64,000 nt of DNA from Candidatus Nomurabacteria bacterium (GTDB taxonomy: Bacteria > Patescibacteriota > Minisyncoccia > Phycocordibacterales > UBA918). Below are positions 6,365 through 64,000 of the stretch, in pieces (positions within the stretch are counted from its first letter, which is position 1; every line of letters starts with the position of its first letter). A model generated the notes under the pieces. That model searched no databases. It had not been told where the DNA came from and worked only from the letters and a program-made list of their open reading frames with translations. The stretch covers positions 3,575 to 67,574 of the forward strand of contig JACKGG010000004.1 in the NCBI GenBank assembly GCA_020632035.1, in the 5' to 3' direction. The translations under genes and the position numbers were made by a program.

Positions 6365-6388
6365 ATGTATATATTACAGTATATAGGC

Positions 6389-33220: not shown

Positions 33221-33221
33221 T

Positions 33222-36200: not shown

Positions 36201-36494
36201 GTAGTTAATAACTCGATTCTGCTGATAGATATGATGAACCAAATGCGAAAAAATAATCCTGCAAAAGATATACGAGAAGTTGTTTTAGACGCTGCTTCAA
36301 ATCGTTTGCGTCCAATTCTTCTAACTACCATCACTACTGTGATCGGTATGATCCCGCTGACTTACGCTGGAGACCTTTGGTCACCACTGGCTTACGCCGT
36401 GATGTTTGGCCTAGTATTCTCAGTGGTAATTACTCTAGTGTTGATACCAATTACCTACAGTAGAAACCCAGGCGATTTACCAAACGGTAAATAA
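33222..36494 (+). CDS. RND-superfamily efflux transporter permease (AcrB/HAE-type, 12 TM helices with two large periplasmic loops)
   Basis: 1090 aa. Two repeats each have a TM1 then large loop then TM2-6 topology. Conserved TM4-like charged residues. Co-transcribed with the adaptor. No outer-membrane factor gene lies adjacent. Confidence 0.85.
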   Translation: MWEFFIKNSKFAYLFLIALICTGTYSLVSIPKESAPEVVIPVGVVSVALPGAPAADVESLITNEIERGLASLENVKQITSTSRESFSSIVIEFDANADLNESILDLKDQVDKIKPNLPDDAEDPVVSEVNFVDQPIMTIAMSGDLPDFTLTELSSDVEKKIESVTGVSRVEISGVRDREVTIILDQQSLQRFQISINEVTNAIRNANLTFPIGQIVNDGVAYNVAFEGDITDSSQIRNIAVVSRGGQPVYIGDIATIEDGLAPASSLSRLSVGGEPSLNSVSFNVYKQSGGDITTITAAVNSLMEELKKPDQILSGITTVTILDAGADIKRDLIRLSSSGLQTVVLVVVLLIFSIGWREALLAGTAIPLSFLFGFIGLYLSGNTINFLSLFSLILGIGILVDSAIVMIEGINRKMKDNPEINKRDAAIFTIREFSTPLISGTLTTVAMFVGLFIVSGVTGQFIASIPFTLIFLLFASLFVSLAILPLIASTFLHRKNATQFEARQIAYAHKLESLYRNKLENYVGNKEKENKFLSLIFSLLVFSIFLPVNVYAGIIASPLTYFVSLKSYSIQSKRGWSDLKRKLAWLPMTIATIVISVVLAGAILPSLSLVKVIFFDQSDIDYIIVEVEKPEGTVKNVTDIAVRRVEEVLYGELDIDSFSTTVGSGNQFGSGGTGEKLANIFVNLDKKRDRTSTEIVDDLRKKMDQLNDLKITVNQPSDGPPTGAAIIVKFLGEDLTEITNLANESAQIFKSLPNTVNVETSTNNNSTEFVMELDRDKTAALGLSPFAVSQVARTALYGTKATSLTTLDQDIDVVVKLNLDSREGATSATTNITTINALSEILIPTVSGNIPLSSLVTISLRESSSMISHEDGKRVVSVTADIGEGGNAREIQAEGISRIEAELDIPDGVIISTGGGETDDSNKAFMEMFLALIVGIGLMVAILTLQFNSYLHMRYVLSILPYSLIGIMFGLAITQNTLSFPSMMGFIALSGIVVNNSILLIDMMNQMRKNNPAKDIREVVLDAASNRLRPILLTTITTVIGMIPLTYAGDLWSPLAYAVMFGLVFSVVITLVLIPITYSRNPGDLPNGK

Positions 36495-45134: not shown

Positions 45135-46490
45135 TTACTCGAGTTTTTTACTTGTATCAAACTTAATAATTATGTGTGTACCAACCCCTTTGATTGATTC
45201 AACTTCGATTAAGCCTCCCAAAAGATCTATTAGCTGTTTGGTGATCCACATGCCAAGACCCGTGCCAGTAACCGCAGATTCGTCTACCCCGCCCACTCTA
45301 GTAAATGGAACAAAAAGATCTTTCTGGTCAGTAGCACTAATGCCCATACCAGTATCTTTAACTACTATAGTTATAGAATCCTTTGTTTCTTTAGCTTCAA
45401 TTGTGACAGTACCAGAGCCAGTGTACTTGATAGCATTAGTTACAATGTTTATTAGTATTTGCTTTAGCCTATTAGCGTCAGTTACTAAGTAAATTGGTTC
45501 TTCTTTTGTGTTTAATACTAACTCTAAATTCTTTTTGTGTGCTAAGGATTGTAGATCAGTAGAAACTTGATTTAATATTAAATTGAGGTTTATTTTCGCT
45601 AGTTCAACTTTAAGCTTTCCAGATTGGAGTCTAGCCACTTCTAAAAAATCATTGACTAAAAATACCATTTGTTCTGTGGCTGTGTGGATATTTTTTATGT
45701 ATCGAATATCTTCTTGTGTTAGTGATTTTGATTCATTTAGAAAGCTTGCGTAGCCTTTAATAACTGTAAGTGGAGTTCTAAACTCATGAGCAATCATGTT
45801 TGTAAAATTGTCCCTTTGTGCAAGTTGAGTTGTCAAAACCTTGTATTTCTTATACCAATCAGTCTGTCTATTAAGCCAGTATGCTAGAGCTATTAAAAAA
45901 AGAAAAATTGCACTAAGGCCAAGGTATGATTGTTGTTTCCTAGACAGCATTACTGAGTCAATATAAGAAAAATCGTGCTCAGTAAAAATGTAACGTTTTT
46001 CTCCTTTTACTTCTACTGTGCTTAAAACTTGCCAGATTCGTTTTCCATCTATCACAAGTTTGTATATATAAACACCTTCTGAAGCGTTTGGTGGGAGGTT
46101 TCGATAGAGTTGGTCTGACTTTTCAGTTAAATTCAAATAAGCATTTTCAGAGTCAAATATGATTAAATATTTATTATCTACTTCACTAATAATTCTTGTT
46201 TTTGTAATATCTTGATTATCTTTCTTAAGTTTAGCAACAACTTGTTTAAGAACAGTACTTGAGCTTACTCTAGTCATAGTGGCTATCGTGGCAATAGAGT
46301 CATGAATTGATGAGATTCTTTGCTTTTCAGAAGTTTCAATGTTCGTAGTTGCTGTTACAAAGAAGTTGTGTGTTAACCAAGCAAAAAGCAGTGGAAACAC
46401 AAAGACTAAAATACCCACAAGAACCATTTTTGAGTTAGCGCGCATGACTTTTAGTCCGTTTTCTAGCAAGACAAGAAGTTCAGATATCAT
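45135..46490 (-). CDS. sensor histidine kinase (two TM helices with a periplasmic sensor, then HisKA and HATPase_c)
   Basis: H-box NMIAHEFRTPLTVIKGY. N, G1 and G2 boxes (NIVTNAIKYT, VKDTGMGI, GTGLGMWI). Confidence 0.85.
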   Translation of the reverse strand: MISELLVLLENGLKVMRANSKMVLVGILVFVFPLLFAWLTHNFFVTATTNIETSEKQRISSIHDSIATIATMTRVSSSTVLKQVVAKLKKDNQDITKTRIISEVDNKYLIIFDSENAYLNLTEKSDQLYRNLPPNASEGVYIYKLVIDGKRIWQVLSTVEVKGEKRYIFTEHDFSYIDSVMLSRKQQSYLGLSAIFLFLIALAYWLNRQTDWYKKYKVLTTQLAQRDNFTNMIAHEFRTPLTVIKGYASFLNESKSLTQEDIRYIKNIHTATEQMVFLVNDFLEVARLQSGKLKVELAKINLNLILNQVSTDLQSLAHKKNLELVLNTKEEPIYLVTDANRLKQILINIVTNAIKYTGSGTVTIEAKETKDSITIVVKDTGMGISATDQKDLFVPFTRVGGVDESAVTGTGLGMWITKQLIDLLGGLIEVESIKGVGTHIIIKFDTSKKLE

Positions 46491-46493
46491 AAG

Positions 46494-48899
46494 CTAGAAA
46501 CTAGGTTCAGTGGTGGCTCCTCCTTTAACAGTCTTTGCTTCAGTGGCTATGATGACATCCTCTTTTGTTTTTAATCCCATTCCAAGCATAAGTAAAATAA
46601 TACCGAGTGAAAGAACAGCCAGGCCAAATACCACATTATAAGAACTTGTGGTTACCGGCGTAATATCACTAGTGACCATACTTGTTTCCCTTTTGTCTAT
46701 TGGAGTAAAAGCTTGTGCTTCTTTTACGAAAGAAAAAGGTTCACTTTGTGCAATGATAGAACCAGTATTATCTGTTATGGCCACATAAACATCATGTCGA
46801 CCATCTTCCAGTTCCTTGTCATAGGTATAAACGAACGAACCGTCAGCGTCTGTTTTGATAGTTACAACAGTTGGAGAGCTAAATATATAAAGATTTACAA
46901 AACTTAAAGGTAAAGCCGTTCCATAAATTTCTGATTTAACTTTTGATTGCACTTCAACGGTTTCGTCTTTATAGACTAAAGGAATAACTGAATCAATCCT
47001 GAGTACATCCTTTCTAATTAATAGCTTCGTATCTTTAGGTGATTCAAATTCCAGCACTGCTTCTGACTGTCCATTGTTTGGATCAAAACCTTGGATAATC
47101 TCTACTCCATCATTGAAACCGTCGTTGTCAGTGTCAACAAGATTTGGATTAGTTTTATATATATATATTTCATCAAAATCAGATACACCATCTCCATCTA
47201 TGTCTCTGGCAGATTCCCCATTTGATTTTGCTTTTCTAATATCTTCAAAAATATTAATTTTTGCTTTTAACAAATCTAAGTACATCTCAATTTCTTGATC
47301 GATGTCGTCAGCTAGATCTTTGAGCTGAGCGTTTTGTAAAGTAGTATTTACTAGAGAACTACGAAAGTCATTAAGGTTGCCCTCAGCAGTAAAAATAAGT
47401 ATTTTATCTCCAGATTGTTTTGCTACTGAATACTTAGCCAATAAATCATTAAGAGCTAAATGGTTGTCTTCTATTAGCTCTGCCGTTACAGCCATTACAT
47501 CTCTTTCGCTTGAATTAAGTGACAGCGCTTTATCGCTAAATGGAAGAAACTCTCTTGTCGCATCTTCAACTTGAACAACTTTTTCATTATTATTAGTTAT
47601 ATTCGTAACTGATGTTTCCAATAGCTTTGGATTTTTAATAGAAACTTTAATAGGTTTTGTTTCATATAGTTCAGCGCCATACTTTACTTTGGCATAAAAC
47701 TCGTACTCATTATCTGGAATGTTTACAGTATCAACGACAAAAATCCACTGGTTCGGTCTTTGTGTTGCGATCGTTACAAATGTATAGTTTAAGGAGTTGA
47801 GAGGTCTAGAATAAAGCTCAGCGTAACTTACACCCGAAGGGACGTTTAGCTCCAAATTTACAGGTCCAGACAAAAAGCGTGCCTTTGGTTTAGTGATGTA
47901 AAAATTATTTTTAGTCTCATGCGCTTCTGGTTTTTCAGTTTCAATGTCTTCTGGGATACTTGGTTCTGGATCAAATGAAAGTGAGTTATTTAGATCAGAC
48001 TGTGGATCATTATCGTATGTAACTGAATCGCCTACTATGACCACTTCTGTTGTCGTAGCAAGATCTTTAGTGTTGCTTACAGTGGAAATGACTGATGTGT
48101 TTTCAAGGCTAGTTTCGTCAATTACCATTTCATTTGAATCTAAAACCGTCTCTTTGATAATATCAACGTCTAACTCAATTCGTTGATTGAAAACAGTCTC
48201 AGCTTCTTTTGAGCCAATAAAAAATTCTCTTGAAGTAATCCCTGTTTTTCCAGTTTTATCATCTGGTTCGAAGGCAATTTTTAAATAATAATAACCCGAC
48301 TCAAGACTATCAGGAATCTTTACTTGGTACTTATTTTCCAACAAAGGTTTTAGATCAATGGCTATAGCATTAGTGCCATTGAGTGGTTTTACAAAAGCTC
48401 TAACCTTACTAGCATTTGTAACAGTAAAATTAACCTCAAAAGTACCTACTATGTTGTTTGGAATATTTGTTAAAATATCTGCATTTGCAGATCCTGCTAC
48501 TGTGTTTGTATTAACAATATCATCAGTAGTGCCAATCAACTCAGCTTTTAGTTGACCGTTATTATATTGAGAACTAAAGATTTCTGATAAAGCCAGAGTA
48601 GATCCAACCAAAATAAAACAAATCGCAGAAACATAGGCAACTAAGTAAACTGATTTTTGAATATAAATATCTAGTTCCTGTCTAACAACTTCAGACTTAT
48701 CAATAGCCCTTAAGCTCATGTTGGTCGGTAACCTAACTGCCGCAATCTGCTTAGGTTTTTTTTTCTTAGACTTATCAGCTTTTGAACTTGTTTTAGCTTT
48801 TGGCTTTGGTAATGGTTTTTTCTTTAAAACACGCTTAACTGGTACCTTTGGTTTGGGAGAAGTTTTCTTTACTATTTTTTGAGCTTTTTCCTTCGGCAT
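46494..48899 (-). CDS. large cell-surface protein with a Lys/Pro-rich cytoplasmic N-terminus, a TM anchor, Asp-rich calcium-binding-type repeats (DxDGDGxxD / DTDNDGxxD) and a C-terminal TM segment
   Basis: 801 aa. ARDIDGDGVSDFDEIYIYKTNPNLVDTDNDGFNDGVEII resembles thrombospondin-type-3/dockerin-like Ca-binding loops. Lies between the histidine kinase and the response regulator. Confidence 0.5.
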   Translation of the reverse strand: MPKEKAQKIVKKTSPKPKVPVKRVLKKKPLPKPKAKTSSKADKSKKKKPKQIAAVRLPTNMSLRAIDKSEVVRQELDIYIQKSVYLVAYVSAICFILVGSTLALSEIFSSQYNNGQLKAELIGTTDDIVNTNTVAGSANADILTNIPNNIVGTFEVNFTVTNASKVRAFVKPLNGTNAIAIDLKPLLENKYQVKIPDSLESGYYYLKIAFEPDDKTGKTGITSREFFIGSKEAETVFNQRIELDVDIIKETVLDSNEMVIDETSLENTSVISTVSNTKDLATTTEVVIVGDSVTYDNDPQSDLNNSLSFDPEPSIPEDIETEKPEAHETKNNFYITKPKARFLSGPVNLELNVPSGVSYAELYSRPLNSLNYTFVTIATQRPNQWIFVVDTVNIPDNEYEFYAKVKYGAELYETKPIKVSIKNPKLLETSVTNITNNNEKVVQVEDATREFLPFSDKALSLNSSERDVMAVTAELIEDNHLALNDLLAKYSVAKQSGDKILIFTAEGNLNDFRSSLVNTTLQNAQLKDLADDIDQEIEMYLDLLKAKINIFEDIRKAKSNGESARDIDGDGVSDFDEIYIYKTNPNLVDTDNDGFNDGVEIIQGFDPNNGQSEAVLEFESPKDTKLLIRKDVLRIDSVIPLVYKDETVEVQSKVKSEIYGTALPLSFVNLYIFSSPTVVTIKTDADGSFVYTYDKELEDGRHDVYVAITDNTGSIIAQSEPFSFVKEAQAFTPIDKRETSMVTSDITPVTTSSYNVVFGLAVLSLGIILLMLGMGLKTKEDVIIATEAKTVKGGATTEPSF

Positions 48900-48917
48900 G
48901 ATTAATCTAAAGTGAGA

Positions 48918-49724
48918 TTACTTGTTCACTAGTTTTTCAATAACCCCTATTAGCTCAGACAAATCAGTCATCGCTTTCACAAAGAATTCGTTAGCACCAA
49001 GTTCTTTTGCCTTTTTTCTGTCTTCGGCACCATCTCTATTAGAGAAAATTATAACAGGAATTTTACGCAACTCATCACTTGATTTTATTTCCTCCAAGAC
49101 TTCAAAACCAGTCCTGCCAGGCAACATTATATCAAGTATAATTATATTTGGTTTAAACTGCTTGATTACTGGCACAATATCTTTGCCGTCGTTACTAAAC
49201 TCATAAGGAAAAAGTGACTTATCAAAACGTAGTGATAGTAAGTTGCGCAATAAAGGATCATCTTCAACTACAAAAACTTTTATTCCTTTAGTAGTGACTT
49301 CTACTGCACTAGAGGTAATATCAATTGAGGAACTTCCAAAAAAAACGCTGTCCTCGCTAAATATAGCTTCGATTTTTTGCAAGACTGAGTTTGTTGATTC
49401 TCCGACTGTTATGTAATCAGCTGCACCTTCTGATAATGCAGACTGAATCTCTTCAGTAGTATTGTTGACTAAAGTAAAAACAGGAACTAAGGAGGCTAAA
49501 TTGCTACCATCTAACAGTTTTTTTATTTCAGGACAAATTCTTCCATCATGAGTATGGTCAAAGATTATTAAGTCGATGGGCTTACCCTTATTTTTCTCCT
49601 TAAAACCTAGACAACTAGAATCAATAACATTTACGCCCAAAGTTTTTAGTTTGTTTCTTAATGACTCTAGCTCAGCAGTTCCATCGCTTACCAGAAAAAC
49701 TTGTTTATTAATAAAAACAGACAT
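48918..49724 (-). CDS. response regulator with two receiver (REC) domains and no output domain
   Basis: The C-terminal REC is canonical (VFVVEDDPLLRNLL...IILDIMLPGRTGFEVLEEIK...KAKELGANEFFVK). The N-terminal domain is REC-like but degenerate. Confidence 0.7.
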   Translation of the reverse strand: MSVFINKQVFLVSDGTAELESLRNKLKTLGVNVIDSSCLGFKEKNKGKPIDLIIFDHTHDGRICPEIKKLLDGSNLASLVPVFTLVNNTTEEIQSALSEGAADYITVGESTNSVLQKIEAIFSEDSVFFGSSSIDITSSAVEVTTKGIKVFVVEDDPLLRNLLSLRFDKSLFPYEFSNDGKDIVPVIKQFKPNIIILDIMLPGRTGFEVLEEIKSSDELRKIPVIIFSNRDGAEDRKKAKELGANEFFVKAMTDLSELIGVIEKLVNK

Positions 49725-55474: not shown

Positions 55475-56038
55475 TTATATGGCGAGTGCTTGATTGACTA
55501 ACTTTCTTAACTTAGAAGCAGAGATGCTCCCACGTTCATGATGAAATACGTTTCCCTCTCTATCATAAATGACAGTTTCAGGCATGTTGTAGCCTTCGAT
55601 TCTTTTATAAAACCTATCATCGTGATCAAGTATAAAAGTTATTTCTTTGCTAATTTTATAAGTTTCGATGAATGAGATTGCTGTGTTTGCTGGTTCTGAT
55701 CTGTTAATAGCCAGAAATTTTACTTCATTATCTCTAAACTCTGCCGACATTTTTGCAATAGTGGCAAGCTCAGTCACTGAAGCGGGGCTCCAACTAGCCC
55801 AAGAGTTTACCACTATTACCTGACCAATATAGTCTGAAAGAAGAATTATGTTTCCCTCCAAGTCAGTATAAGGTGTGCCACCTGCATCAACTGACAGGGC
55901 ACTTTGTGCTGGGGTTAATATAGTGTTATTAATATTGTTTTTGCTTACTACCAAGTATGTGTAAAAACCAGCTATCAATACAATAGCTAAAAGAACTAAT
56001 AGTGGTATATAGAATTCTCTTAAAAATTTTACGTTCAT
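55475..56038 (-). CDS. membrane-anchored thioredoxin-fold (TlpA/ResA/redoxin-like) protein with the CxxC active site replaced by SxxS
   Basis: N-terminal TM helix. GQVIVVNSWASWSPASVTEL corresponds to the W-C-x-x-C redoxin motif but with both cysteines replaced by serine. Confidence 0.5.
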   Translation of the reverse strand: MNVKFLREFYIPLLVLLAIVLIAGFYTYLVVSKNNINNTILTPAQSALSVDAGGTPYTDLEGNIILLSDYIGQVIVVNSWASWSPASVTELATIAKMSAEFRDNEVKFLAINRSEPANTAISFIETYKISKEITFILDHDDRFYKRIEGYNMPETVIYDREGNVFHHERGSISASKLRKLVNQALAI

Positions 56039-56556
56039 CCCTTAATAAAAATTTCAAAATCTTCTGGCACCTCACCCTCACCCGCCGGAATTAAATTTAG
56101 TTGCACTGGGCGACCCATAAAGGTTGCGAAAAAAGTGGCCTTTTCTGATGCTTTAGCTTCTGCCTTAAATCTTTGCGCCGTTGGTATTTGTGGACACTCA
56201 TCTGAATTGTTGATAACTGAAAAAGATAGCTCGATTTGTTCTGGAAAAGATTCACGAACTAGTGGCTCTACTTCTAAAAGGTCACAAGGAGTTTTAAAGC
56301 TTATTTCCCCCACCAGGGTGTGCTCACCACCAATAAAGTAATGTTTTGCATCAATACGAGTAATATCGGCGTAGGGGTCTTCTGCTACAACTTCAAGTGA
56401 TTCATTTTGTGTTTCCTCTTGTAGTTCATTATTCTTCATTTGCGCAAAAATGAACATGCCGAGGATAAGAAGTGCAAATAAAACTATTACTAAGATGATA
56501 GATTTCTGACTCATATAATGTTTGTTACGAGTAAACTTAATTTCATTGTACAACAT
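56035..56556 (-). CDS. membrane-anchored hypothetical protein
   Basis: 173 aa. N-terminal TM helix (IILVIVLFALLILGMFIF). Gene ends overlap with both neighbours. Confidence 0.4.
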   Translation of the reverse strand: MLYNEIKFTRNKHYMSQKSIILVIVLFALLILGMFIFAQMKNNELQEETQNESLEVVAEDPYADITRIDAKHYFIGGEHTLVGEISFKTPCDLLEVEPLVRESFPEQIELSFSVINNSDECPQIPTAQRFKAEAKASEKATFFATFMGRPVQLNLIPAGEGEVPEDFEIFIKG

Positions 56557-58210
56557 TTTTCAAATCTTGGCCCACATAGATTGTAATTGGTGTCTCAATA
56601 TTGTCTTGGCCATCAAATGAAGACAGAAGCGCACCTTGCATTTTTTCACTGAGTTGTAGAGCAAAATCTACTAAATCTGAACGGTACACAATTACAGTGT
56701 TCTTTTCAGAACTATTAAATTCATTCTCAATGCCAACTACATCGTAACTAGCTGACTCTAGAAATACCCGTAAATTCGCTCCTAAACCAGAAACTCCACT
56801 TCGGTTAACAATGGCTATCTTAGGCAATGAATTGTCAATATTAGTACTAAGATCTTCCCCTTTTTCTTCAATAATTTCTTGATACTTTAGCTCCTCAGAG
56901 GATATGTTAACAGCGTCACCTAGACCCTCCATTTTAATGTTGAAGGCTCGATCAGATACAGTTGCTGAGCGAACGTACAAGGTAAGAATTAGTATAAATA
57001 TCAAAGCCAAAAGGAGAAAACTAAAAAATACACGATACGAGCTTAAAAAGTTAAGTAGTACAGAAACTTTATTTCCGATTCCTTCATTACTACCCCACCT
57101 TTCTCTTAGGTCCAACATACCTTCTTCTAGTGGAGCAACAACGGAAACTCTACGCAAGGATTTAACTGGTAATCCTCCTTTTGAATTGCTAATAGTTGGA
57201 GATAAACCAGCAACCATAAACATACGTCTAATATAAATTTTAATACCCAGTGTAAACAAGTATATTAGTAAAGATATTACAAAAAACACAGTTAGTAAAA
57301 TTTTCCAAGGGATTACCCAAAAAGAAATTTCACTTGATGCTGATTTTCTACCGTCTTGACCATAAGCGAGTGTGGCAACTGCTGTGTAACGACCGATATC
57401 TGACAAAGACCACTCCCCTGTCCATGTGAAGGAATAGTTTCTTACGCTTTGCGGTAATACATTTCCATACAAAGACGTTCTATTAATGGGTATGCTGCCA
57501 CGATCCTGACCCCACATGTTTTTTATTACTATTTCACCCTGAGGTAAAACATGGACGTTTCCAGAATTTTCAAACCTAAGTTCAAACGTTGCTTGTGGTT
57601 GTTCTAGGACGCTTTTTGTTGTTCTAAAAGATCTTATATTGCCAGATTCAGTTATATCACCTGTTACTCTTAAAAACATCAAAGTAGTGACGATTTGTGA
57701 AGTTACAACTTTATTTTGAACACTCTTTTCCGGTGGCTTTGTACCTATTAGTAACGCAGCGAAGTGACCTCCTGGAGGTGCATTTTCAGGCACCAGCACA
57801 GAAAAGGGTATTTCAAGTGTTTCTTCAGGTGGTATAGTGATTTCGTCTTTTGTTATATCAATCCATTCGGCTATTGTCTGACCTTCAGCTTCTTCATCAA
57901 CAATGGGAATAAACTTACCCTGGCCACTTTCACCCTGTGGGGCAAAGTTAACTACATTTGCATAGACTTTTATTTCATACGGGTTTGGATTTATGACCCT
58001 CACAAAACTTGTCCACTCTTGGCTAGGGTTTGCCGACATGTCAAAAATAGTTGGTGACACGCTCAATGACAAAGCACCTTGTGCATAACTTTGTAATGGC
58101 AAAAATAAACCAAACAAAATAAAACTGATTGTCAATAAAATTCTATTTTTTTGTATTTTTAAGGTCAATATCATGATCTTGTGGTTTAGGGTCGTGACCT
58201 TCTTTGACAT
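56543..58210 (-). CDS. cell-surface protein of DUF916/DUF3324-like architecture (signal peptide, Ig-like domains, TM helix) with a C-terminal LytR_C-like domain
   Basis: Signal peptide ending PLQSYAQG. Then SLSVSPTIFDM...YEIKVYANVVNF. A TM helix ILLTVFFVISLLIYLFTLGI. The C-terminal KIAIVNRSGVSGLGANLRVFLESASYDVVGIENEFNSSEKNTVIVYRSDL resembles the LytR_C (LytR/CpsA/Psr C-terminal) fold. Confidence 0.45.
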   Translation of the reverse strand: MSKKVTTLNHKIMILTLKIQKNRILLTISFILFGLFLPLQSYAQGALSLSVSPTIFDMSANPSQEWTSFVRVINPNPYEIKVYANVVNFAPQGESGQGKFIPIVDEEAEGQTIAEWIDITKDEITIPPEETLEIPFSVLVPENAPPGGHFAALLIGTKPPEKSVQNKVVTSQIVTTLMFLRVTGDITESGNIRSFRTTKSVLEQPQATFELRFENSGNVHVLPQGEIVIKNMWGQDRGSIPINRTSLYGNVLPQSVRNYSFTWTGEWSLSDIGRYTAVATLAYGQDGRKSASSEISFWVIPWKILLTVFFVISLLIYLFTLGIKIYIRRMFMVAGLSPTISNSKGGLPVKSLRRVSVVAPLEEGMLDLRERWGSNEGIGNKVSVLLNFLSSYRVFFSFLLLALIFILILTLYVRSATVSDRAFNIKMEGLGDAVNISSEELKYQEIIEEKGEDLSTNIDNSLPKIAIVNRSGVSGLGANLRVFLESASYDVVGIENEFNSSEKNTVIVYRSDLVDFALQLSEKMQGALLSSFDGQDNIETPITIYVGQDLKNVVQ

Positions 58211-59168
58211 ACATGGTCACCAGGTCGCTCTCTTCATCACTATAAGGCGCATTATGAAAAGCTTTTTTAAATAGTAAAACTATAAAAATAGTACTAATTA
58301 ATATAGCGAAAAATAATATTGCTAACAAATTTATAGGCATGATAAAAAACGAGGTCGAATCAAACAGTGAAGCTGTTTGATTTTTTCCATATTTTAGAGA
58401 AAGGTTTGCTTTAAATCTACCCAATGTTCCGTCGACAGGAACTATACTTTTGATTGTTACTGTCTTACCTGGAGGAATCTCTATTCCTTCAGTGTTGAAA
58501 AAAAGAGAGTCTACCTCTGCCCCTTTAGAATCGTAAAAAACAATTTCCCCCTTAGGAGCAGAAGTAGTATCACCAGTATTCTCAATTACAACACTTATCT
58601 CCTTCTTAGCTTCGTTAGTTATGAACCTATTTATGAAAAAGCCAGAGACCTTCATACTGTCACTGCTTTTATCGGCAACAGTGAGTTTGACTATAACTCC
58701 GTCTGCTTCACCAGCTAGAGCAATAGATTCTGCCTTTGGTCTATTGGGAGCCGGTACAAAACCAACAAAAACATGATATTCCCCTGGTTTTGCATATGGA
58801 TTTATTCTAAAAGTTAAAGGAACATCTGTTTTGCTGTTTGGTTCAATTTCTATCCTCCCTCGAGACACCTCAACCCAACTTGTGACTGTATTTGTGCGAT
58901 CAGTCATAATGGGCGAAACGAATTGTTTTATCACACCCTCTTTATCTACAGAGATCTCATTAACTGTCGCATAGACTACTAATTTCGTGATCGGACTATC
59001 ATTTGTCAGTTGCACAGTCTCAGTAACAGTTTCTCTTGGCTCGACAACCCGGTCAATCAAAAAAGGCCGGACGGTATACGAAGAAGCCATTACTGGTAGA
59101 GCTTGAGCTAGCAATAAAAAAATGGCTACAAGTATGGTATACACGTTCAATTTCATATTTCTAATCAT
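58143..59168 (-). CDS. cell-surface protein of DUF916/DUF3324-like architecture (signal peptide, two beta-rich domains, C-terminal TM helix and short cytoplasmic tail); paralogue of the 56543..58210 product
   Basis: Signal peptide ...LPVMASS. Then SYTVRPFLIDR...KLVVYATVNEIS. A TM helix NLLAILFFAILISTIFIVLLF. Same domain order as the downstream gene. Confidence 0.45.
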   Translation of the reverse strand: MIRNMKLNVYTILVAIFLLLAQALPVMASSYTVRPFLIDRVVEPRETVTETVQLTNDSPITKLVVYATVNEISVDKEGVIKQFVSPIMTDRTNTVTSWVEVSRGRIEIEPNSKTDVPLTFRINPYAKPGEYHVFVGFVPAPNRPKAESIALAGEADGVIVKLTVADKSSDSMKVSGFFINRFITNEAKKEISVVIENTGDTTSAPKGEIVFYDSKGAEVDSLFFNTEGIEIPPGKTVTIKSIVPVDGTLGRFKANLSLKYGKNQTASLFDSTSFFIMPINLLAILFFAILISTIFIVLLFKKAFHNAPYSDEESDLVTMYVKEGHDPKPQDHDIDLKNTKK

Positions 59169-59173
59169 AACAT

Positions 59174-62100
59174 TTAATATACTGGAACTGCTATATAGGT
59201 GATACTAGTCTCATACTGTCCAGCCGGCTGCAGACCTCGTACTTTCATTCGGTAAATAATACTCTGTGTGTCGACCGTAGCAATAGAGCTATACATGACT
59301 TCATCTAGCGAAGTATTTAAAGGAGCATAAGAATCTATAGGGGCAAACCTTCCTGAACCTCCTTCTAGGGTTGCGTCTGTTGTATGGTACCCAAAACAGC
59401 TGTCAGCTGATACTAAACAGGCAGAAGACCAGCCTAGTGGCACTGAGTTTGAACTAGTTATCGGTTCGATTTGATTACCGTAAGTGTCTGTCAATTGTTG
59501 GTCAGCATACTTAAACACTTGATACCCTTCAATTGCATTAGTATCCACTGTTATCTGTTGTGCCACTTCCACATCTGTATCTAACGGCAGTGAACCGAAG
59601 TTGATTGTGGTTGGAGTTGAGGTTGCATCTGTGGTTATTCCCGCAATTGTTGTGCCGGCATCTACACCATCGATAGTAAATATAAGTGAGGCACTTTCTC
59701 CCACCAGACTAGGATTAGTGGTACTTGCTAGTACAATTTCATCATTGGCTAAGTCGTACAAGCGGAAGAAATAAACTCGACCATAATTTCTATCAACATT
59801 TGTATATGTTAGTGAGAACTCGTATTCAGTATTATCATTGGCTGCATGAGTAAAACCATTGTAGTAGACAGAGCTCTCAGTGTGCGTTCCGCACCCTGCA
59901 CCAACCCCAGCCACACAGTTGTCAGAATCTGATAAAACAGCAGAATCTACAACCTGATTATCTAAACCGGCGGCGTCGTAGTAACACCACACAGAAGAGG
60001 CAGTGCAAGTGGAAGTAGCTACAACATCTTGAGCATCACTGTAATCAGCTTCTTCTGCAAACTGAAGTTTAAATCTAGCGTTTACTTGTGGTAGATTTTT
60101 TATTTCATCAAGTGTAACTCTGAGTTTCACTGCGTTACCTTTTAAGACGTTGGTTGGGGAAGTATTCTCTGCAGCAAAAGCTGTGGTAGGCGTTTCGTTG
60201 GTCTCGTCGTCATACCAGCGCCAACTTGTAACAACTGGGGTATATCCTTCAGTACGAATTTCAGGATAGTATAAGTATCCGTTTAAGTCTGAGTCATCTG
60301 AATTTACCATTCTAAAACAGTAAGTAGTTCGTTGTAATGCTCCATTTTGTTCAATATTCCAGTCGTACTCTATATTCTCTCCATCATATGTTGGAAAAGA
60401 ATTAGCTAAAGCTGGGCTCGTCTCTGAGTAAACACCGGCTCTATCAGAAATAGAGATCAACAAATCCCCTCCTGTTGGAGGATTGCCAGACAAGTTAGTT
60501 CCATCAGCCGCACCTGGTGCATCATATCCACGCCAAATATTTCCACTACCTGGGGCTCCGACATCATTCCAGACACTTACTGCAGAACAGGTTGTTACTT
60601 TTACTCCATATTGTAACTTGGTTTGTAATAGACCAGCAGGCAGAGTGGCATTGGAAATTTTTGCAGACATTCTGATTCTGATATTTTGGTTTTCAGCTAG
60701 TGGTTCATCCAAGGCACCGATAGATGTATTTTCGCCGAGATCTGTGAGGCCAGCCGGCCATGGATCGGTCGGTAAAATGTCATCATTATCAACATAAAAT
60801 CTGTAGTAGTTTTGACGAACAGCCAAGTCTGCTGCGGGCCATTGAACAATTTCTGTTCTGTATCTTAAAGTGTTTCCTGAATCACTACGCCAAATTTGAT
60901 ACGAGGAAGTTGAGACGATAGAGGCTCCAACAATCATTCTTGGTGTATTGTTACTAATTCTATCGATTGATGTGGTAATAAAGATAGAAGCGTTATTTTC
61001 TGCATTTATGTTTGTCGGTATATTGACAGAAAGTGTAAATGGCTCAGCTCCTCCAATTGTATTACCATTGCTTCTTTGGACGTTCATTTCACCAGTGCCA
61101 GTTTGTAAGTTTTCAATTACCCAAGCCACTGCAACATGATTTATGCCGATAGTGGTAGCATTACTGTCAAGTAAAAATGAGACTGCTCCAATACTAGAGA
61201 GCCAAACTTCATGACCAAAATCAGCTAGATTAATTCCAGAATCATAGCGCTTTTGGGCATGAATGAATGTCCGAGCCAGGCTGTTTACTGCAGTGATACT
61301 CTCTGTTTCAGTCACACCGGCTGCACTGAAACTATGTTCAGTTCTTTGCACTCTCCAGTTAAGACCAGTAAACTCAACAACAGCATAACTTACCTCTCCG
61401 GTGTTTCCGCCATTAGCACCACGCTCAAAGACAGGCTTATCGGTACTAGCAGACCAAGAAGCAGTGGATTGGTGAGCAAATGATTCTGATCTATTACCAC
61501 CAGTATGTAACTGCCCTGTTACAAACACAACAATGTCATTGTCATCACTGACATTAGAAGCAACTGAGCCTGTAGCTACATTTTGAGTGCTACCATAGCT
61601 AATCACAGATTGGTCTCTCACAATAATCTCATTGTCGCCGCCTGTAGGACCAATATATTCGACAATTTCCCAAGCGACATAAGTTTCATTAATTGAATCA
61701 GAGTCTCGAGCAATGGTGAAACTAGTTTCAATATTTCCTGGATTAGAAATATACGCAGTATAGTCATCAGCATTTTGGTTACCACCAAGTGTGGTTTTAC
61801 CTGCTCCGGTAAAGTGAGAATTTGTAATTCGAACAAAGGCACTAGTTGAGGCACTGGGCGCATCATAATCGACCCCGGCAACTAAAGTCACTCCGGTACC
61901 TGTAACAGTGGTTGTCGCTCGCTGAATCTTAAAGTCACGCAATTCTTCAATGGTTATTTCTGCATATTGTTCATACTGAAGTAATGGATTGCCATTTTGA
62001 GTAACTCTAAAACAATAAGTTGTTGCGTATGGCGTGTCATTTGTCGTTGTTATACTGTACTCTAAATCTGTATACTCAGTTTCATTTAGGCTTGTAGTGG

Positions 62101-64000
62101 CAGAAAAAGACTCCGTATCCCTTACTCCTCCATTTGAGCCAAGGAAAAATGAATTCGAGTTTGTTAATCCGCCATCTGCTTCAGGTATATCAGTCGATGT
62201 CTCCCCATTTGTCAGGAAGGGTGAATCATACATACTCCAGGCAACTCCCCCACTATCGGCGTCAGTCCACACCGTAACCGCTTCACAGGTTGAAGATTTT
62301 ACTCCGTACTCAAGCCCATATCGATGTGGGACTGAAGTCGTTGAACCTTGATTAGACAAACCTATACGAAGCCTAATCGGTGAGTTTTTTCCGAAATCAT
62401 CTAACAAAGTATCTTCAGACCCCGCTGTGGCAGAAGTAGCACCAGTTTCGGTACCGTCGTCATTGCGCCAGTGGTAATGAGTTTGAGTAACTATTCCTCC
62501 GGCTAAAGTAGTTGAGCCTGTTATGTCAAGAGCCGTGAGAGGAGCCACACTTCCCCCGCCTGAAACCAAAACATCATTAGAACCAGAGTTAATAGTTACA
62601 TCCAGAGTCTCTCCGTTACGGGCCTCTTCTGTTACGTCTAGCACCGTGTACACACACATAGCTTGAGTGGTTGTGATAGCAACAGATCCAGTGAAGTTGG
62701 CTGATCCATCTGCTGAACTGAAAGAGCTCGACGCTGTGCCAAATTGTGCCTCACCTCCATCGTAAGAAACATCATCACAGCTATAAGGTGCAGTGGTATC
62801 TAGGTCATAGAAAAGTCTTATGTTTTGCACACCAAGAGCACCATCGACAGTTCCATTTTCTGAAATAGTGATACTAGTTACATTACGAGATGAGGCATTC
62901 TCTGTGATAGAAAAAGCACCACCGATATAAAAATCATTAGTTGGAATATCAACTATTGATATTTGTGTGCTAGTAGCCCTAACTCTTACGTCGGCTGCAA
63001 TTGTTGCTTTCGGGTAGGCACTATAGGCCGGAAGCTTTTCACTATTATTAGTTAGTCTAAAGCAATAAGTATTTCCTTCAGTTGCTGACGTAGAAGCGAC
63101 GATAGAAAACTCCACTTCTACCCAATTCGTAGGTAATAAGGTTAGAGAACCTAAGGTAGAAGATGTGTCTTTCTGACCACCATTAGGTGTGAGCAGTACA
63201 GTATTCTCGTTGGTGACTCCACCAATTCCATTTCCAATATCTGTAGTATCATCTTCATCTGTAATAAAAGTAGAATCATACAAATTCCAGTCATCATCTG
63301 TGGCTCCTACATCAGTCCAGCCATCAGCATCTTCACATGTTGATGTGTTAAGAGCATACTCCAGCCTAAGACTGGTTGGTAAAGATGAAGTGGAGCCTTC
63401 ATTTGAAACACCAAGCCGTAGTCTTATGGGAGATTCTTGTTGCAGGGCTGTTAAGTCTGTATCTTCGTTACCACTGGTTCTTGAAGTTGCAGAAGTCTCA
63501 TTGCCGTCATCGTTTCTCCAATGATAGTGGGTTTGGGTTAAATCTGAGTCAAGAATTGTCGTGTCTCCTGAAATAGCTTGAGCAGCAGCTGGAATGGCTG
63601 TCACACCGCCAGAAACAATCACATCTGTAGTCGGATCAGAAATTTCAATGTTTATTATACTACTATCTACTGCTGCTTTTAAAACATCTAAAACCACATA
63701 AACACACATAGCCTGGGTTGGAGAAATTCCAACTGACCCAGTAAAGGCAGACGTGCCATCACTACCTGAAAAACCATTTGTGTCTGTGGTGCCAAACTGA
63801 GACTCGACTCCTCCGTACGACTCACTAGCACAATCATACGGAGCACTGGTATCAAGATCATACAACAGCCTTATATTATTTAAATTGGTTGAAGCGTCGA
63901 CTGTTCCGTTTTCTGATATCACTATACTTGTCACATTTCGCGAAACTGATTCTTCTGTAATGGCAAAATTACCTCCAATATAAAAATCAGTAGTACTGGC
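59174..64000 (-). CDS. giant repetitive surface protein, 3' portion (frame open to the window end; over 1600 aa) with about 310-aa tandem repeats containing a THYHWRNDDG(N/T)E motif
   Basis: Two near-identical repeat units (…ITISENGTVDGALGVQNIRLFYDLDTTAPYSCDD…TQAMCVYTVLDV…TQTHYHWRNDDGTETGATS…) plus further degenerate copies. The ORF-track start at 63934 is a GTG inside a repeat. The same frame stays open through 64000 (…DFYIGGNFAITEESVSRNVTSIVIS). Confidence 0.7.
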   Translation of the reverse strand, partial: ASTTDFYIGGNFAITEESVSRNVTSIVISENGTVDASTNLNNIRLLYDLDTSAPYDCASESYGGVESQFGTTDTNGFSGSDGTSAFTGSVGISPTQAMCVYVVLDVLKAAVDSSIINIEISDPTTDVIVSGGVTAIPAAAQAISGDTTILDSDLTQTHYHWRNDDGNETSATSRTSGNEDTDLTALQQESPIRLRLGVSNEGSTSSLPTSLRLEYALNTSTCEDADGWTDVGATDDDWNLYDSTFITDEDDTTDIGNGIGGVTNENTVLLTPNGGQKDTSSTLGSLTLLPTNWVEVEFSIVASTSATEGNTYCFRLTNNSEKLPAYSAYPKATIAADVRVRATSTQISIVDIPTNDFYIGGAFSITENASSRNVTSITISENGTVDGALGVQNIRLFYDLDTTAPYSCDDVSYDGGEAQFGTASSSFSSADGSANFTGSVAITTTQAMCVYTVLDVTEEARNGETLDVTINSGSNDVLVSGGGSVAPLTALDITGSTTLAGGIVTQTHYHWRNDDGTETGATSATAGSEDTLLDDFGKNSPIRLRIGLSNQGSTTSVPHRYGLEYGVKSSTCEAVTVWTDADSGGVAWSMYDSPFLTNGETSTDIPEADGGLTNSNSFFLGSNGGVRDTESFSATTSLNETEYTDLEYSITTTNDTPYATTYCFRVTQNGNPLLQYEQYAEITIEELRDFKIQRATTTVTGTGVTLVAGVDYDAPSASTSAFVRITNSHFTGAGKTTLGGNQNADDYTAYISNPGNIETSFTIARDSDSINETYVAWEIVEYIGPTGGDNEIIVRDQSVISYGSTQNVATGSVASNVSDDNDIVVFVTGQLHTGGNRSESFAHQSTASWSASTDKPVFERGANGGNTGEVSYAVVEFTGLNWRVQRTEHSFSAAGVTETESITAVNSLARTFIHAQKRYDSGINLADFGHEVWLSSIGAVSFLLDSNATTIGINHVAVAWVIENLQTGTGEMNVQRSNGNTIGGAEPFTLSVNIPTNINAENNASIFITTSIDRISNNTPRMIVGASIVSTSSYQIWRSDSGNTLRYRTEIVQWPAADLAVRQNYYRFYVDNDDILPTDPWPAGLTDLGENTSIGALDEPLAENQNIRIRMSAKISNATLPAGLLQTKLQYGVKVTTCSAVSVWNDVGAPGSGNIWRGYDAPGAADGTNLSGNPPTGGDLLISISDRAGVYSETSPALANSFPTYDGENIEYDWNIEQNGALQRTTYCFRMVNSDDSDLNGYLYYPEIRTEGYTPVVTSWRWYDDETNETPTTAFAAENTSPTNVLKGNAVKLRVTLDEIKNLPQVNARFKLQFAEEADYSDAQDVVATSTCTASSVWCYYDAAGLDNQVVDSAVLSDSDNCVAGVGAGCGTHTESSVYYNGFTHAANDNTEYEFSLTYTNVDRNYGRVYFFRLYDLANDEIVLASTTNPSLVGESASLIFTIDGVDAGTTIAGITTDATSTPTTINFGSLPLDTDVEVAQQITVDTNAIEGYQVFKYADQQLTDTYGNQIEPITSSNSVPLGWSSACLVSADSCFGYHTTDATLEGGSGRFAPIDSYAPLNTSLDEVMYSSIATVDTQSIIYRMKVRGLQPAGQYETSITYIAVPVY

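What the first reader, a model, noticed from the sequence alone, without database searches (positions are those of the whole stretch)
55475..64000. Operon for a giant repeat protein plus two DUF916/DUF3324-like surface proteins: a candidate cell-surface appendage or adhesion system
Five consecutive minus-strand genes, with overlapping or near-touching ends, encode the following. First, a protein over 1600 aa built from about 310-aa repeats with a conserved THYHWRNDDG(N/T)E block and Cys pairs. Second and third, two paralogous proteins with signal peptide, beta-rich domains and a single TM helix, the architecture of the DUF916/DUF3324 partners of Gram-positive WxL-type surface complexes. One of them carries an extra LytR_C-like tail. 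Fourth, a small membrane protein. Fifth, a membrane-anchored thioredoxin-fold protein that has lost both active-site cysteines. No sortase, type IV pilin or secretion ATPase is in the window. This is how a host-attachment or surface-layer system might look in an episymbiotic, cell-wall-bearing reduced bacterium.
Basis: partly seen in the sequence, partly recalled or inferred. Interest (0 to 1): 0.65.

Follow-up and report, generated by a model that had tools for sequence, protein, structure and literature searches.

The report
Pam-type pilus locus with giant subunit
The five genes are real and form the tail end of a larger, strongly conserved surface-fibre gene cluster of tiny symbiotic (CPR/Patescibacteria) bacteria: a 2,050-residue protein ending in the pilin domain of the newly described "Pam" pilus, followed by two membrane-anchored helper proteins that belong to the same family as the WxL-interacting proteins of Gram-positive gut bacteria.

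Summary
Five tightly packed minus-strand genes lie at 55475-64000, and the giant ORF runs off the window. Both accessory proteins are true remote homologues of Firmicute WxLIP (DUF916+DUF3324+TM): hhalign gives 97% and 93.7%, and the top PDB fold hits are 9i1y/9i25, followed by chaperone-usher chaperones. The giant has no WxL domain. Its last 146 residues match NCBIfam NF058581, "CPR Pam pilus pilin C-terminal domain" (E 1.6e-8, full model length, 23/23 family members, below the curated cut-off). A conserved beta-strand linker precedes this domain.

The same C-terminal module ends more than 1,600 protein clusters of 180-5,845 aa. In unrelated Patescibacteria loci it again sits beside WxLIP-like genes. 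In complete relatives the five genes are the 3' part of a 13-gene cluster that also encodes a 385-aa pilin-like protein and cohesin/dockerin proteins.

Best reading: a divergent, usher-less, donor-strand (Pam-type) fibre system of Kaiserbacteria/Nomurabacteria-type CPR bacteria. The giant would be a tip or decorating adhesin subunit, and the 341- and 555-aa proteins membrane-anchored chaperones or anchors. This is a new variant of a kind first described in 2026. The WxLIP link to Pam-type loci is absent from the two papers I read.

The parts
59174..64000 (-). Giant surface protein gene, 3' 4827 nt (1608 codons + stop). It is open at the window end; the full protein is about 2050 aa.
   Evidence: More than 660 homologues were found, and the listed full-length ones are mostly 2025-2079 aa at 50-75% identity, all named ones Patescibacteria. 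P0001 extends it 338 aa upstream.
63554..64000 (-). A1 domain (aa 1-149 of the fragment), cut by the window end about 19 residues into the domain
   Evidence: A-domain HMM
62996..63541 (-). B1 domain (aa 154-335), carries THYHWRNDDGNE
   Evidence: B HMM iE 8e-71; motif
62504..62998 (-). A2 domain (aa 335-499)
   Evidence: A HMM iE 3e-73
61934..62503 (-). B2 domain (aa 500-689), carries THYHWRNDDGTE
   Evidence: AF2 all-beta, pLDDT about 85
60836..61933 (-). Unique middle domain M (aa 690-1055), all-beta, the best-predicted part of the model
   Evidence: no repeat elsewhere
60248..60832 (-). B3 domain (aa 1057-1251), divergent motif YYRFYVDNDD
   Evidence: iE 2e-17 to the B2 HMM
59696..60247 (-). 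B4 domain (aa 1252-1435), motif WRWYDDETNE, four invariant Cys
   Evidence: A B4-like + C-module cassette recurs in other proteins.
59615..59695 (-). Linker with a conserved beta-strand (SLIFTIDGV; family consensus LxFTVxGV): candidate donor strand
   Evidence: Conserved between the giant and the 385-aa pilin-like protein. Predicted as a strand with pLDDT about 90. Lies N-terminal to the NF058581 match. The donor function is inferred.
59177..59614 (-). Pam-pilin-type C-terminal domain (aa 1463-1608), ending at the protein's last residue
   Evidence: NF058581 CPR_Pam_pilin_C E 1.6e-8, 34.7 bits (cut-off 55), model positions 3-148 of 148; 23/23 family members hit, best 7.6e-12. 1656 cluster representatives carry the module, almost all at the extreme C-terminus.
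58143..59168 (-). 341-aa WxLIP-family protein: signal/TM segment, two Ig-like domains, C-terminal TM helix. Candidate membrane-anchored chaperone or anchor.
   Evidence: hhalign to Firmicute WxLIP 97%, E 1.2e-10, 266 columns. Paralogue of the 555-aa protein. TM segments.
56543..58210 (-). 555-aa WxLIP-family protein with two extra TM helices and a C-terminal LytR_C domain. The family start is probably near 58174.
   Evidence: AF2 pLDDT 87.7. Foldseek top hits are WxLIP 9i1y/9i25, then CfaA, CsuC, Caf1M, FimC-type chaperones and RbmA. hhalign 93.7% to the WxLIP DUF916 domain. Some family members carry PF06030.
56546..56944 (-). LytR_C domain of the 555-aa protein (aa 423-555), predicted to lie outside the membrane after the third hydrophobic helix
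   Evidence: Pfam PF13399 1.3e-7; alpha/beta fold in the model; PDB 2m5y profile hit
56035..56556 (-). Small N-terminally anchored protein (159 aa from M at 56514) with two conserved Cys; no known family
   Evidence: Found downstream in 46 of 63 related loci.
55475..56038 (-). Membrane-anchored ResA/TlpA-like thioredoxin-fold protein with CxxC replaced by SxxS
   Evidence: Pfam Redoxin 2.4e-12; ResA 5.7e-16; PDB ResA hits. CxxC is present in the Nomurabacteria relative. 19 CxxC versus 36 without among related loci.

Best explanation
Window 55475-64000 is the downstream end of a conserved, roughly 20-kb Patescibacteria gene cluster. I read the cluster as a divergent Pam-type surface fibre: an usher-less, chaperone-assisted, donor-strand system on a cell without an outer membrane.

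Shown:
- The giant protein ends in a Pam-pilin-type C-terminal domain preceded by a conserved beta-strand linker.
- The next two genes encode membrane-anchored two-Ig-domain proteins of the WxLIP (DUF916/DUF3324) family. Their fold also matches chaperone-usher chaperones.
- This pairing recurs in independent loci.

Inferred mechanism:
1. All products are exported by Sec.
2. The many invariant cysteine pairs of the giant are oxidised outside the membrane. The ResA-like partner helps ancestrally, but it is catalytically dead in this genome and probably acts as a holdase or has no redox role.
3. The incomplete Ig fold of the C-terminal domain is capped by a strand from the 341- and/or 555-aa protein, which stay in the membrane through their TM helices. 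The 555-aa protein also holds on to the wall through LytR_C.
4. The cap is then exchanged for the linker strand of the next subunit, most likely the 385-aa pilin-like protein encoded upstream of the window. The giant, with its sialidase-like propeller and A/B/M beta-domains, would then sit at or along the distal part of a fibre as the contact-making subunit.
For: - Pilin domain: NF058581 hits the window's C-module at E 1.6e-8 over the whole model, and all 23 members tested. 39 of 64 diverse module-bearing proteins hit it (best 4.4e-9) and 3 hit PamT.
- The module ends 1656 protein clusters of 180-5845 aa, almost always at the last residue, as expected for an assembly or anchor domain.
- A second, 385-aa protein in the same cluster carries the module and the same linker strand.
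- Accessory proteins: hhalign to WxLIP. Foldseek top hits are WxLIP, including the complex with long WxL, then the chaperones CfaA, CsuC, Caf1M, DraB, SafB and FimC at E 1e-10 to 1e-8 with TM-score (target) 0.5-0.6. C-terminal TM helices. This matches PamC/PamD as described in bioRxiv 10.64898/2026.03.03.709456.
- Recurrence: loci L012 and L013 pair small and large module proteins with WxLIP-like genes. In 59 of 63 species-level loci the giant is followed by at least one WxLIP-like gene, and 32 have the full downstream set.
- Invariant Cys pairs parallel the paired cysteines of PamA and PamB.
Against: - The NF058581 scores are below NCBI's curated cut-off (34.7 versus 55 bits), so this is a divergent relative and not a called member.
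- No structure comparison of the isolated C-terminal domain with PamA/PamB or WxL could be run. No multimer prediction was possible, so strand donation is inferred and not shown.
- The giant is unusually conserved for an adhesin (50-75% identity, listed full-length copies mostly 2025-2079 aa). That fits a structural component at least as well as a host-specific tip.
- The shaft pilin candidate lies outside the window.
- The preprint reports Pam homologues mainly in Saccharimonadia and Microgenomatia, not in this lineage.
Confidence: 0.6

Rival explanations
1. Static WxL-style surface display. The giant is not polymerised. It is held at the cell surface as a single molecule because the membrane-anchored WxLIP-like 341- and 555-aa proteins permanently complete its C-terminal domain with a strand, with the LytR_C domain gripping the wall. 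This would mirror how WxLIP is thought to hold long WxL proteins on Gram-positive cells.
For: WxLIP homology of both accessory proteins. Top fold hit is WxLIP bound to long WxL. The giant is always immediately followed by its own pair of WxLIP-like genes. The C-terminal position of the module in small and large proteins mirrors small and large WxL. High conservation and nearly fixed length fit a fixed envelope component.
Against: No WxL domain by Pfam or hhalign. The module is instead homologous to a domain shown by cryo-EM to polymerise by donor-strand exchange. A conserved linker strand shared with a pilin-sized paralogue is what a polymerising subunit needs.
Confidence: 0.25
2. S-layer-like or envelope-scaffold protein. 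The giant forms a coat or lattice around the cell, and the downstream genes are its membrane and wall tethers.
For: Listed full-length orthologues are mostly 2025-2079 aa and 50-75% identical across many species. Most genomes sampled show one locus, though at least two contigs carry two. A LytR_C tether is present. There is a weak hit of a related 318-aa protein to a putative S-layer model (E 0.008).
Against: No S-layer, SLH or lattice-type domain was found. The only significant family hit is a pilin domain. The model is an extended string of beta-domains, which is more fibre-like than lattice-like.
Confidence: 0.08
3. Cellulosome-like cohesin-dockerin enzyme complex. The cluster assembles a glycan-degrading or glycan-binding machine, and the giant (with an N-terminal BNR/sialidase-like propeller) is its catalytic or binding arm.
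For: Cohesin and dockerin domains above Pfam cut-offs in three upstream genes of relatives. Weak BNR hits in the giant's N-terminus and Asp-box-like motifs in the family consensus.
Against: The giant and the four downstream proteins carry no cohesin or dockerin. The BNR hits are below threshold. The cohesin/dockerin genes lie outside the window. Nothing in this reading explains the WxLIP-like genes or the pilin domain.
Confidence: 0.05

Closest known systems
Pam pilus of CPR bacteria (PamA/PamB pilins, PamC/PamD membrane-anchored chaperones, PamR, PamT; Troman et al., bioRxiv 10.64898/2026.03.03.709456; NCBIfam NF058581, NF058579)
   Same: The C-terminal pilin domain is homologous. A strand-like linker lies just before it. 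Two-Ig-domain helper proteins with a C-terminal TM helix and a chaperone-usher-chaperone fold are present. Other shared features are the absence of an usher, paired cysteines, signal peptides and restriction to CPR.
   Different: - Scores are under the curated cut-off.
- The subunit here is about 2050 aa with at least 8 extra domains, instead of a 39-55 kDa two-domain pilin.
- One helper is fused to LytR_C.
- A ResA-like protein, a small Cys-containing anchor protein and (upstream) cohesin/dockerin proteins belong to the cluster.
- The lineage is Kaiserbacteria/Nomurabacteria-type, not Saccharimonadia or Microgenomatia.
- The ATP-synthase neighbourhood reported for pam operons is not seen here; the neighbours are AI-2E, FKBP, TGT and UvrB.
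WxL surface-protein clusters of Firmicutes (small WxL, large WxL, WxLIP = DUF916+DUF3324+TM; PMC10599100, PMC9772566; PDB 9i1y, 9i25)
   Same: The accessory proteins are sequence- and fold-level WxLIP homologues with the same size and layout (341 aa versus 337-365 aa). The cluster logic is the same: small and large proteins share one C-terminal module and sit next to the WxLIP gene(s). A predicted strand-completion contact links the helper to the C-terminal module.
   Different: No WxL domain or WxL motifs. No LPxTG protein or sortase was found. Two to three WxLIP paralogues are present instead of one. The phylum is Patescibacteria, whereas 91% of WxL sequences are in Firmicutes.
Chaperone-usher pili of Gram-negative bacteria (PapD/FimC, Caf1M, CsuC, CfaA chaperones; donor-strand exchange)
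   Same: The helper's two-domain fold matches these chaperones (Foldseek E 1e-10 to 1e-8). The pilin domain sits at the extreme C-terminus. Two module members weakly hit a fimbrial subunit model. From memory, and untested: an invariant Gly 14 residues from the C-terminus and a terminal aromatic residue resemble the classical pilin C-terminal motif.
   Different: No usher and no outer membrane. The helpers are membrane-anchored. There are no Pfam PapD_N or PapD_C hits. The donor strand would be an internal linker, not an N-terminal extension.
ResA/TlpA/DsbE extracytoplasmic thiol-disulfide oxidoreductases
   Same: Membrane-anchored thioredoxin fold; best matches are to ResA. The protein is encoded next to secreted proteins rich in invariant Cys pairs.
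   Different: Both active-site cysteines are replaced by serine here, and in about two thirds of related loci.

Membership tests
CPR Pam pilus system | Subunit carries the Pam pilin C-terminal (truncated Ig-like, strand-accepting) domain | tested here: met
   NF058581 E 1.6e-8 over model positions 3-148 of 148 for the window's module. 23/23 family members hit, best 7.6e-12. 39/64 diverse module proteins hit. Caveat: the bit scores (about 35) are below NCBI's curated cut-off of 55, so this shows homology, not curated membership. The truncated-Ig geometry itself was not checked.
CPR Pam pilus system | Linker beta-strand between the N- and C-terminal domains that is donated to the neighbouring subunit | tested here: inconclusive
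   A conserved strand (LxFTVxGV) lies 20-27 residues before the pilin-domain match. It is shared by the giant and the 385-aa protein and predicted as a strand. Donation could not be modelled.
CPR Pam pilus system | Two-domain pilin of about 39-55 kDa with a nine-strand beta-sandwich N-terminal domain | tested here: not met
   The giant has about 1870 residues of other domains before the linker: a propeller, two A+B units, M, B3 and B4. The 385-aa upstream protein has the right size, but its N-terminal fold was not tested.
CPR Pam pilus system | PapD/FimC-like chaperones carrying a C-terminal TM helix (PamC/PamD) | tested here: met
   The 555-aa model (pLDDT 87.7) matches CfaA, CsuC, Caf1M, DraB, SafB and FimC at E 1e-10 to 1e-8. 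TM helices follow the second Ig domain in both proteins. Sequence comparison with PamC/PamD themselves was not possible.
CPR Pam pilus system | Assembly into extracellular helical filaments by donor-strand exchange | not testable with these tools
   Needs multimer prediction, cryo-EM or cryo-ET, or biochemistry.
CPR Pam pilus system | Restricted to CPR/Patescibacteria | tested here: met
   Named homologues and 78 GTDB loci are all Patescibacteria, apart from three short, probably mis-binned contigs.
WxL cluster (Firmicutes) | WxLIP protein: DUF916 (PGBD) + DUF3324 (HBD) + C-terminal TM helix, about 337-365 aa | tested here: met
   341-aa family versus 7 true WxLIPs: hhalign 97%, E 1.2e-10, 266 columns across both domains and the TM helix. 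555-aa family: 93.7% over DUF916. Foldseek top hits are 9i1y and 9i25. Pfam PF06030 is sub-threshold in the window proteins but present in some family members.
WxL cluster (Firmicutes) | At least two WxL-domain proteins (small and large) with the dual Trp-x-Leu motif | tested here: not met
   No PF13731 hit for the giant or for 23 module sequences. hhalign of the module profile versus real WxL profiles gives probability 0.6-2.7%. A real-WxL HMM gives E 0.07 at best.
WxL cluster (Firmicutes) | Small and large proteins sharing one C-terminal module, clustered with the WxLIP gene | tested here: met
   385-aa and about 2050-aa proteins share the C-module. The same pattern is seen in L012 and L013. 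The layout is analogous, but the module is a different family.
Chaperone-usher pili | Outer-membrane usher and soluble periplasmic PapD-family chaperone | tested here: not met
   No usher or PapD_N/PapD_C Pfam hits in the window proteins or in the upstream cluster proteins. The helpers are membrane-anchored. The resemblance is at fold level only.
ResA/TlpA thiol-disulfide oxidoreductase | Thioredoxin fold with a CxxC active site | tested here: not met
   The fold is present, but the motif reads WSPAS. The protein is a catalytically inactive derivative.
LytR_C domain proteins | PF13399 domain above the gathering score | tested here: met
   32.9 bits against a cut-off of 22.2, aa 464-549.

The most novel reading that the evidence does not exclude
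The membrane-anchored 'chaperones' of CPR Pam pili and the WxLIP (DUF916/DUF3324) proteins of Firmicutes are one protein family. On this reading, WxL surface complexes and Pam pili are two branches of a single, ancient, usher-less strand-complementation system of bacteria without an outer membrane. In the Kaiserbacteria/Nomurabacteria branch this system has been built around a strongly conserved 2,050-residue subunit that serves as the cell's main host-contact organelle. It is supported by a LytR_C wall tether, a redox-dead thioredoxin holdase and cohesin-dockerin connectors.
Probability: 0.35. Interest if true: 0.8.

Novelty: new variant of a known kind. Interest (0 to 1): 0.6.

Why it matters
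CPR/Patescibacteria are thought to live attached to other cells, yet little is known about how most of them make contact. The Pam pilus was described only in 2026, for Saccharimonadia.

If the reading is right, this locus extends that assembly principle to the large Kaiserbacteria/Nomurabacteria-type lineages. It also shows that the pilin domain is a general C-terminal 'plug' carried by more than 1,600 protein clusters of up to 5,800 residues. That would give a handle on a large block of CPR dark-matter proteins.

The locus also ties the helper proteins by sequence to the WxLIP family of enterococci, listeriae and lactobacilli. This suggests that WxL complexes, which are linked to virulence and colonisation, work by chaperone-like strand complementation and share ancestry with a pilus system. 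Both ideas can be tested directly with multimer prediction and a few pull-downs.

Tried and rejected
- Foldseek of the 1109-residue giant model against PDB and BFVD gave only generic multi-Ig matches (alpha-2-macroglobulin, integrin legs, mastigoneme, phage tail proteins; TM about 0.1). It could not resolve single domains.
- Sequence and profile searches of the giant, its C-module and the 159-aa protein against PDB sequences found nothing useful.
- Pfam finds nothing in the giant. NCBIfam finds nothing when the whole 1608-aa fragment is scanned; the pilin-domain hit appears only when the module is scanned alone.
- My first guess, that the C-module is a degenerate WxL domain (Y for W), was tested with two rounds of hhalign against real WxL profiles and rejected. 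Only the last beta-hairpin aligns, P 0.017-0.1.
- The 356-aa upstream TM protein shows no BLAST similarity to the 341-aa protein.
- Promoter and terminator scans are at chance level and say nothing about operon limits.
- Literature searches for cohesin/dockerin in Patescibacteria, and for a paper on the 9i25 structure, found nothing relevant.
- The B, A and M domains remain without any known relative.

Full report
**What is in the sequence**

Window 55475-64000 carries five minus-strand genes with almost no spacing.

- Giant ORF, 59174 to beyond 64000. It has 1608 codons and no stop, and it is open at the window end.
- 341-aa gene, 58143-59168, starting 5 nt after the giant's stop.
- 555-aa gene, 56543-58210. 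It overlaps the previous gene by 32-68 nt depending on the start used. The overlap is kept in relatives.
- 173-aa ORF, 56035-56556. Its conserved start is M15 at 56514, giving 159 aa.
- 187-aa gene, 55475-56038, with a 4-nt overlap.

A public protein 99.9% identical to the giant extends 338 aa further upstream without a stop. Orthologues are intact at 2045-2063 aa. Base composition is uniform. Promoter and terminator scans are at chance level.

**Anatomy of the giant**

Self-comparison and domain HMMs give the following order in the 1608-aa fragment:

| Domain | Residues | Note |
|---|---|---|
| A1 | 1-149 | cut by the window end |
| B1 | 154-335 | THYHWRNDDG |
| A2 | 335-499 | |
| B2 | 500-689 | THYHWRNDDG |
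| M | 690-1055 | unique domain |
| B3 | 1057-1251 | |
| B4 | 1252-1435 | |
| C-terminal module | 1436-1608 | |

The tandem repeat is therefore about 350 aa (A+B) in two copies at 41-64% identity by segment. The B domain occurs four times. The missing N-terminus (about 440 aa in orthologues) holds a signal peptide and a region with Asp-box-like motifs and weak BNR/sialidase hits. All ten cysteines in residues 500-1608 are invariant in 96 of 96 orthologues and lie in pairs. AlphaFold2 on residues 500-1608 with a 37-sequence alignment gives an all-beta model with mean pLDDT 84.8. Neither Pfam nor PDB sequence searches recognise any part of the protein.

**The accessory proteins**

The 341- and 555-aa proteins are paralogues (BLASTP 1e-19; family-family hhalign 100%, E 8e-59). 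The 555-aa protein was modelled with 119 homologues at pLDDT 87.7. The model has these parts:

- an N-terminal signal/TM helix
- two beta-sandwiches (50-299)
- a TM helix (302-333)
- a helical cytoplasmic stretch
- a further hydrophobic helix (393-416)
- an alpha/beta LytR_C domain (Pfam 1.3e-7)

Its best PDB fold matches are E. faecium WxLIP, alone and bound to long WxL (9i1y and 9i25, E 5e-11). Next come the chaperone-usher chaperones CfaA, CsuC, Caf1M, DraB, SafB and FimC (E 1e-10 to 1e-8), and RbmA.

I collected seven genuine WxLIP proteins and a dozen WxL proteins from annotated Lactobacillales plasmids. The 341-aa family (67 orthologues) aligns to WxLIP over both Ig domains and the TM helix (hhalign 97%, E 1.2e-10, 266 columns). 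The 555-aa family aligns over the DUF916 domain (93.7%, E 1.9e-7).

**The partner is not WxL but a Pam-type pilin domain**

An HMM of the giant's last 173 residues also finds the C-terminus of a 385-390-aa protein encoded upstream in the same cluster in two complete relatives (E 4e-30 and 2e-23). A profile search of 1.8 billion cluster representatives finds the module in 1656 of them. It lies almost always at the very last residue, in proteins of 180 to 5845 aa. Most of these proteins have no Pfam domain at all.

The module shows no significant similarity to real WxL domains. Pfam gives no hit, and hhalign gives 0.6-2.7% probability, with only the final hairpin aligning. Scanned on its own against NCBIfam, however, the window's module hits NF058581, 'CPR_Pam_pilin_C, Pam pilus system pilin subunit'. 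The hit has E 1.6e-8 and covers model positions 3-148 of 148. All 23 module sequences tested hit it, best 7.6e-12. Of 64 diverse module-bearing proteins, 39 hit it and 3 hit the PamT model. The scores (about 35 bits) are under NCBI's cut-off of 55, so these are divergent relatives.

The about 27 residues before the match contain a conserved strand (LxFTVxGV). It is shared by the giant and the 385-aa protein and is predicted as a strand.

**What is known about Pam pili**

Troman et al. (bioRxiv 10.64898/2026.03.03.709456) solved filaments of Ca. Mycosynbacter amalyticus by cryo-EM.

- The pilins PamA and PamB have a beta-sandwich N-domain, a linker strand and a truncated Ig-like C-domain that accepts the neighbour's linker.
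- PamC and PamD are PapD/FimC-like chaperones that carry a C-terminal TM helix.
- PamR is RbmA-like with a TM helix and is proposed to anchor the fibre.
- There is no usher.
- The pilins have paired cysteines.
- Homologues were found only in CPR, mainly in Saccharimonadia and Microgenomatia.

The preprint does not mention WxL, DUF916, LytR_C, thioredoxins or giant subunits. [quoted passage not shown] It does not mention chaperones, ushers or CPR.

**Context and recurrence**

In the complete genomes CP060228 and CP060229 the five genes are the 3' end of a 13-gene, same-strand cluster. In gene order it encodes:

1. a 318-aa weakly WxLIP-like protein
2. a 368-aa dockerin protein
3. the 385-aa pilin-like protein
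4. a 356-aa TM protein
5. a 589-aa cohesin protein
6. a 227-aa protein
7. a 247-aa cohesin/dockerin protein
8. a 617-aa propeller
9. the giant
10. the 338-aa WxLIP-like protein
11. the 543-576-aa WxLIP-like + LytR_C protein
12. the 159-162-aa protein
13. the 187-189-aa redoxin

Two unrelated Patescibacteria loci again combine small and large module proteins with WxLIP-like genes, including a LytR_C fusion (L012 and L013). Among 63 species-level loci with enough downstream sequence, 59 have at least one WxLIP-like gene after the giant, and 32 have the complete downstream set. All named sources are Patescibacteria, labelled Kaiserbacteria, Nomurabacteria, Paceibacteria or Parcubacteria. The exceptions are three short contigs that are probably mis-binned. 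The rest of the window is housekeeping, with no sortase, type IV pilus or secretion ATPase genes among the ORFs scanned.

**The redoxin**

The 187-aa protein is an N-terminally anchored ResA/TlpA-like thioredoxin fold. The window and the Kaiserbacteria relative read WSPAS and WSPKS, while the Nomurabacteria relative keeps WCPAC. Across related loci 19 keep CxxC and 36 do not. The ancestral role was probably disulfide handling for the Cys-rich secreted proteins. In this genome any remaining role cannot be redox chemistry.

**Most likely mechanism**

The domain homologies, fold matches, membrane topology predictions and gene coupling are shown. The following steps are inferred:

1. Export by Sec.
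2. Capping of the giant's incomplete C-terminal Ig fold by a strand of the membrane-anchored 341- and/or 555-aa protein.
3. Exchange of that cap for the linker strand of the next subunit, most likely the 385-aa protein.
4. Anchoring at the base through TM helices and the LytR_C domain.

In this scheme the giant is a distal or decorating subunit whose propeller and A/B/M domains make contact with a partner cell or substrate.

The main rival keeps the same contact chemistry but no polymer. It is a WxL-style static display of a single giant on its WxLIP-like anchors. The protein's unusual conservation and near-constant length are a point in that rival's favour. S-layer and cellulosome-like readings are weaker.

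**Verdict**

The locus is a new variant of a kind described in 2026. It is a Pam-type system in a different CPR lineage, with a 2,050-aa subunit and extra partners.

Neither of the two papers read connects the two literatures. The finding that the helper proteins next to Pam-type pilin domains are sequence homologues of Firmicute WxLIP does connect them.

Limits:

- No isolated-domain fold comparison and no multimer prediction could be run.
- PamC/PamD sequences were not at hand.
- The shaft-pilin candidate lies outside the window.

Noticed in passing
L003 1-9958 and L001 1-9870 (relatives; corresponds to sequence beyond window 64000): The cluster continues upstream of the giant with cohesin- and dockerin-domain proteins above Pfam cut-offs (368 aa DUF4215+Big_6+Dockerin_1; 589 aa Cohesin+Big_13; 247 aa Cohesin-like+Dockerin/EF-hand). 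It also encodes a 617-aa TolB-like propeller and a 385-aa pilin-like protein. A cohesin-dockerin set inside a pilus-type cluster of a CPR bacterium is unexplained.
   Followed up: partly
window 55475-56038 and 55 related loci (L014-L091): The ResA-like partner keeps CxxC in 19 loci and has lost it in 36 (SxxS in 24). The gene stays in place all the same, which suggests a non-catalytic role that has been gained or retained repeatedly.
   Followed up: partly
window 31682-36494 (+): An HlyD-type membrane-fusion protein and a 1090-aa AcrB/RND transporter sit side by side in a bacterium presumed to lack an outer membrane.
   Followed up: no
window 45135-49724 (-): An 801-aa secreted-looking protein with bacterial TSP3 repeats and a Big_13 domain sits between a histidine kinase and a response regulator. 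It may be another regulated surface protein.
   Followed up: no
L043, L044, L085: Giant-type C-terminal modules at about 47-53% identity lie on short contigs binned as Syntrophomonadaceae, Dehalococcoidia and Azotimanducaceae. These are most likely mis-binned Patescibacteria contigs in public MAGs. Many other loci carry a generic 'uncultured Candidatus Saccharibacteria' label that may also be unreliable.
   Followed up: no
window 58143-58210: The 555-aa gene starts inside the end of the 341-aa gene. The overlap is kept in relatives (32 and 62 nt). The public annotation of the identical protein (P0121, 505 aa) starts after the signal peptide and so probably misses the true start.
   Followed up: partly
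window 5039-7624 and 18688-20034 (-): Three ORFs of 441, 411 and 448 aa have no Pfam match at E 1e-5 (1e-4 in the rescan of the 448-aa ORF).
   Followed up: no
proteins P0241-P0390, alignment A6: Many unrelated-length proteins share not only the C-terminal pilin-type module but also a B4-like domain directly before it (consensus WRWYxD...KFxLQFS...WCYxDG...GTHNES...YYFRxYD). This suggests a mobile two-domain C-terminal cassette.
   Followed up: partly
L013 (contig of 1.27 Mb), 10001-35529: Another Patescibacteria genome has a 5226-aa protein with the same C-terminal module and one B domain. It is followed by two about 365-aa module proteins, two WxLIP-like genes and a WxLIP-like+LytR_C gene. 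This is a larger version of the same system.
   Followed up: partly
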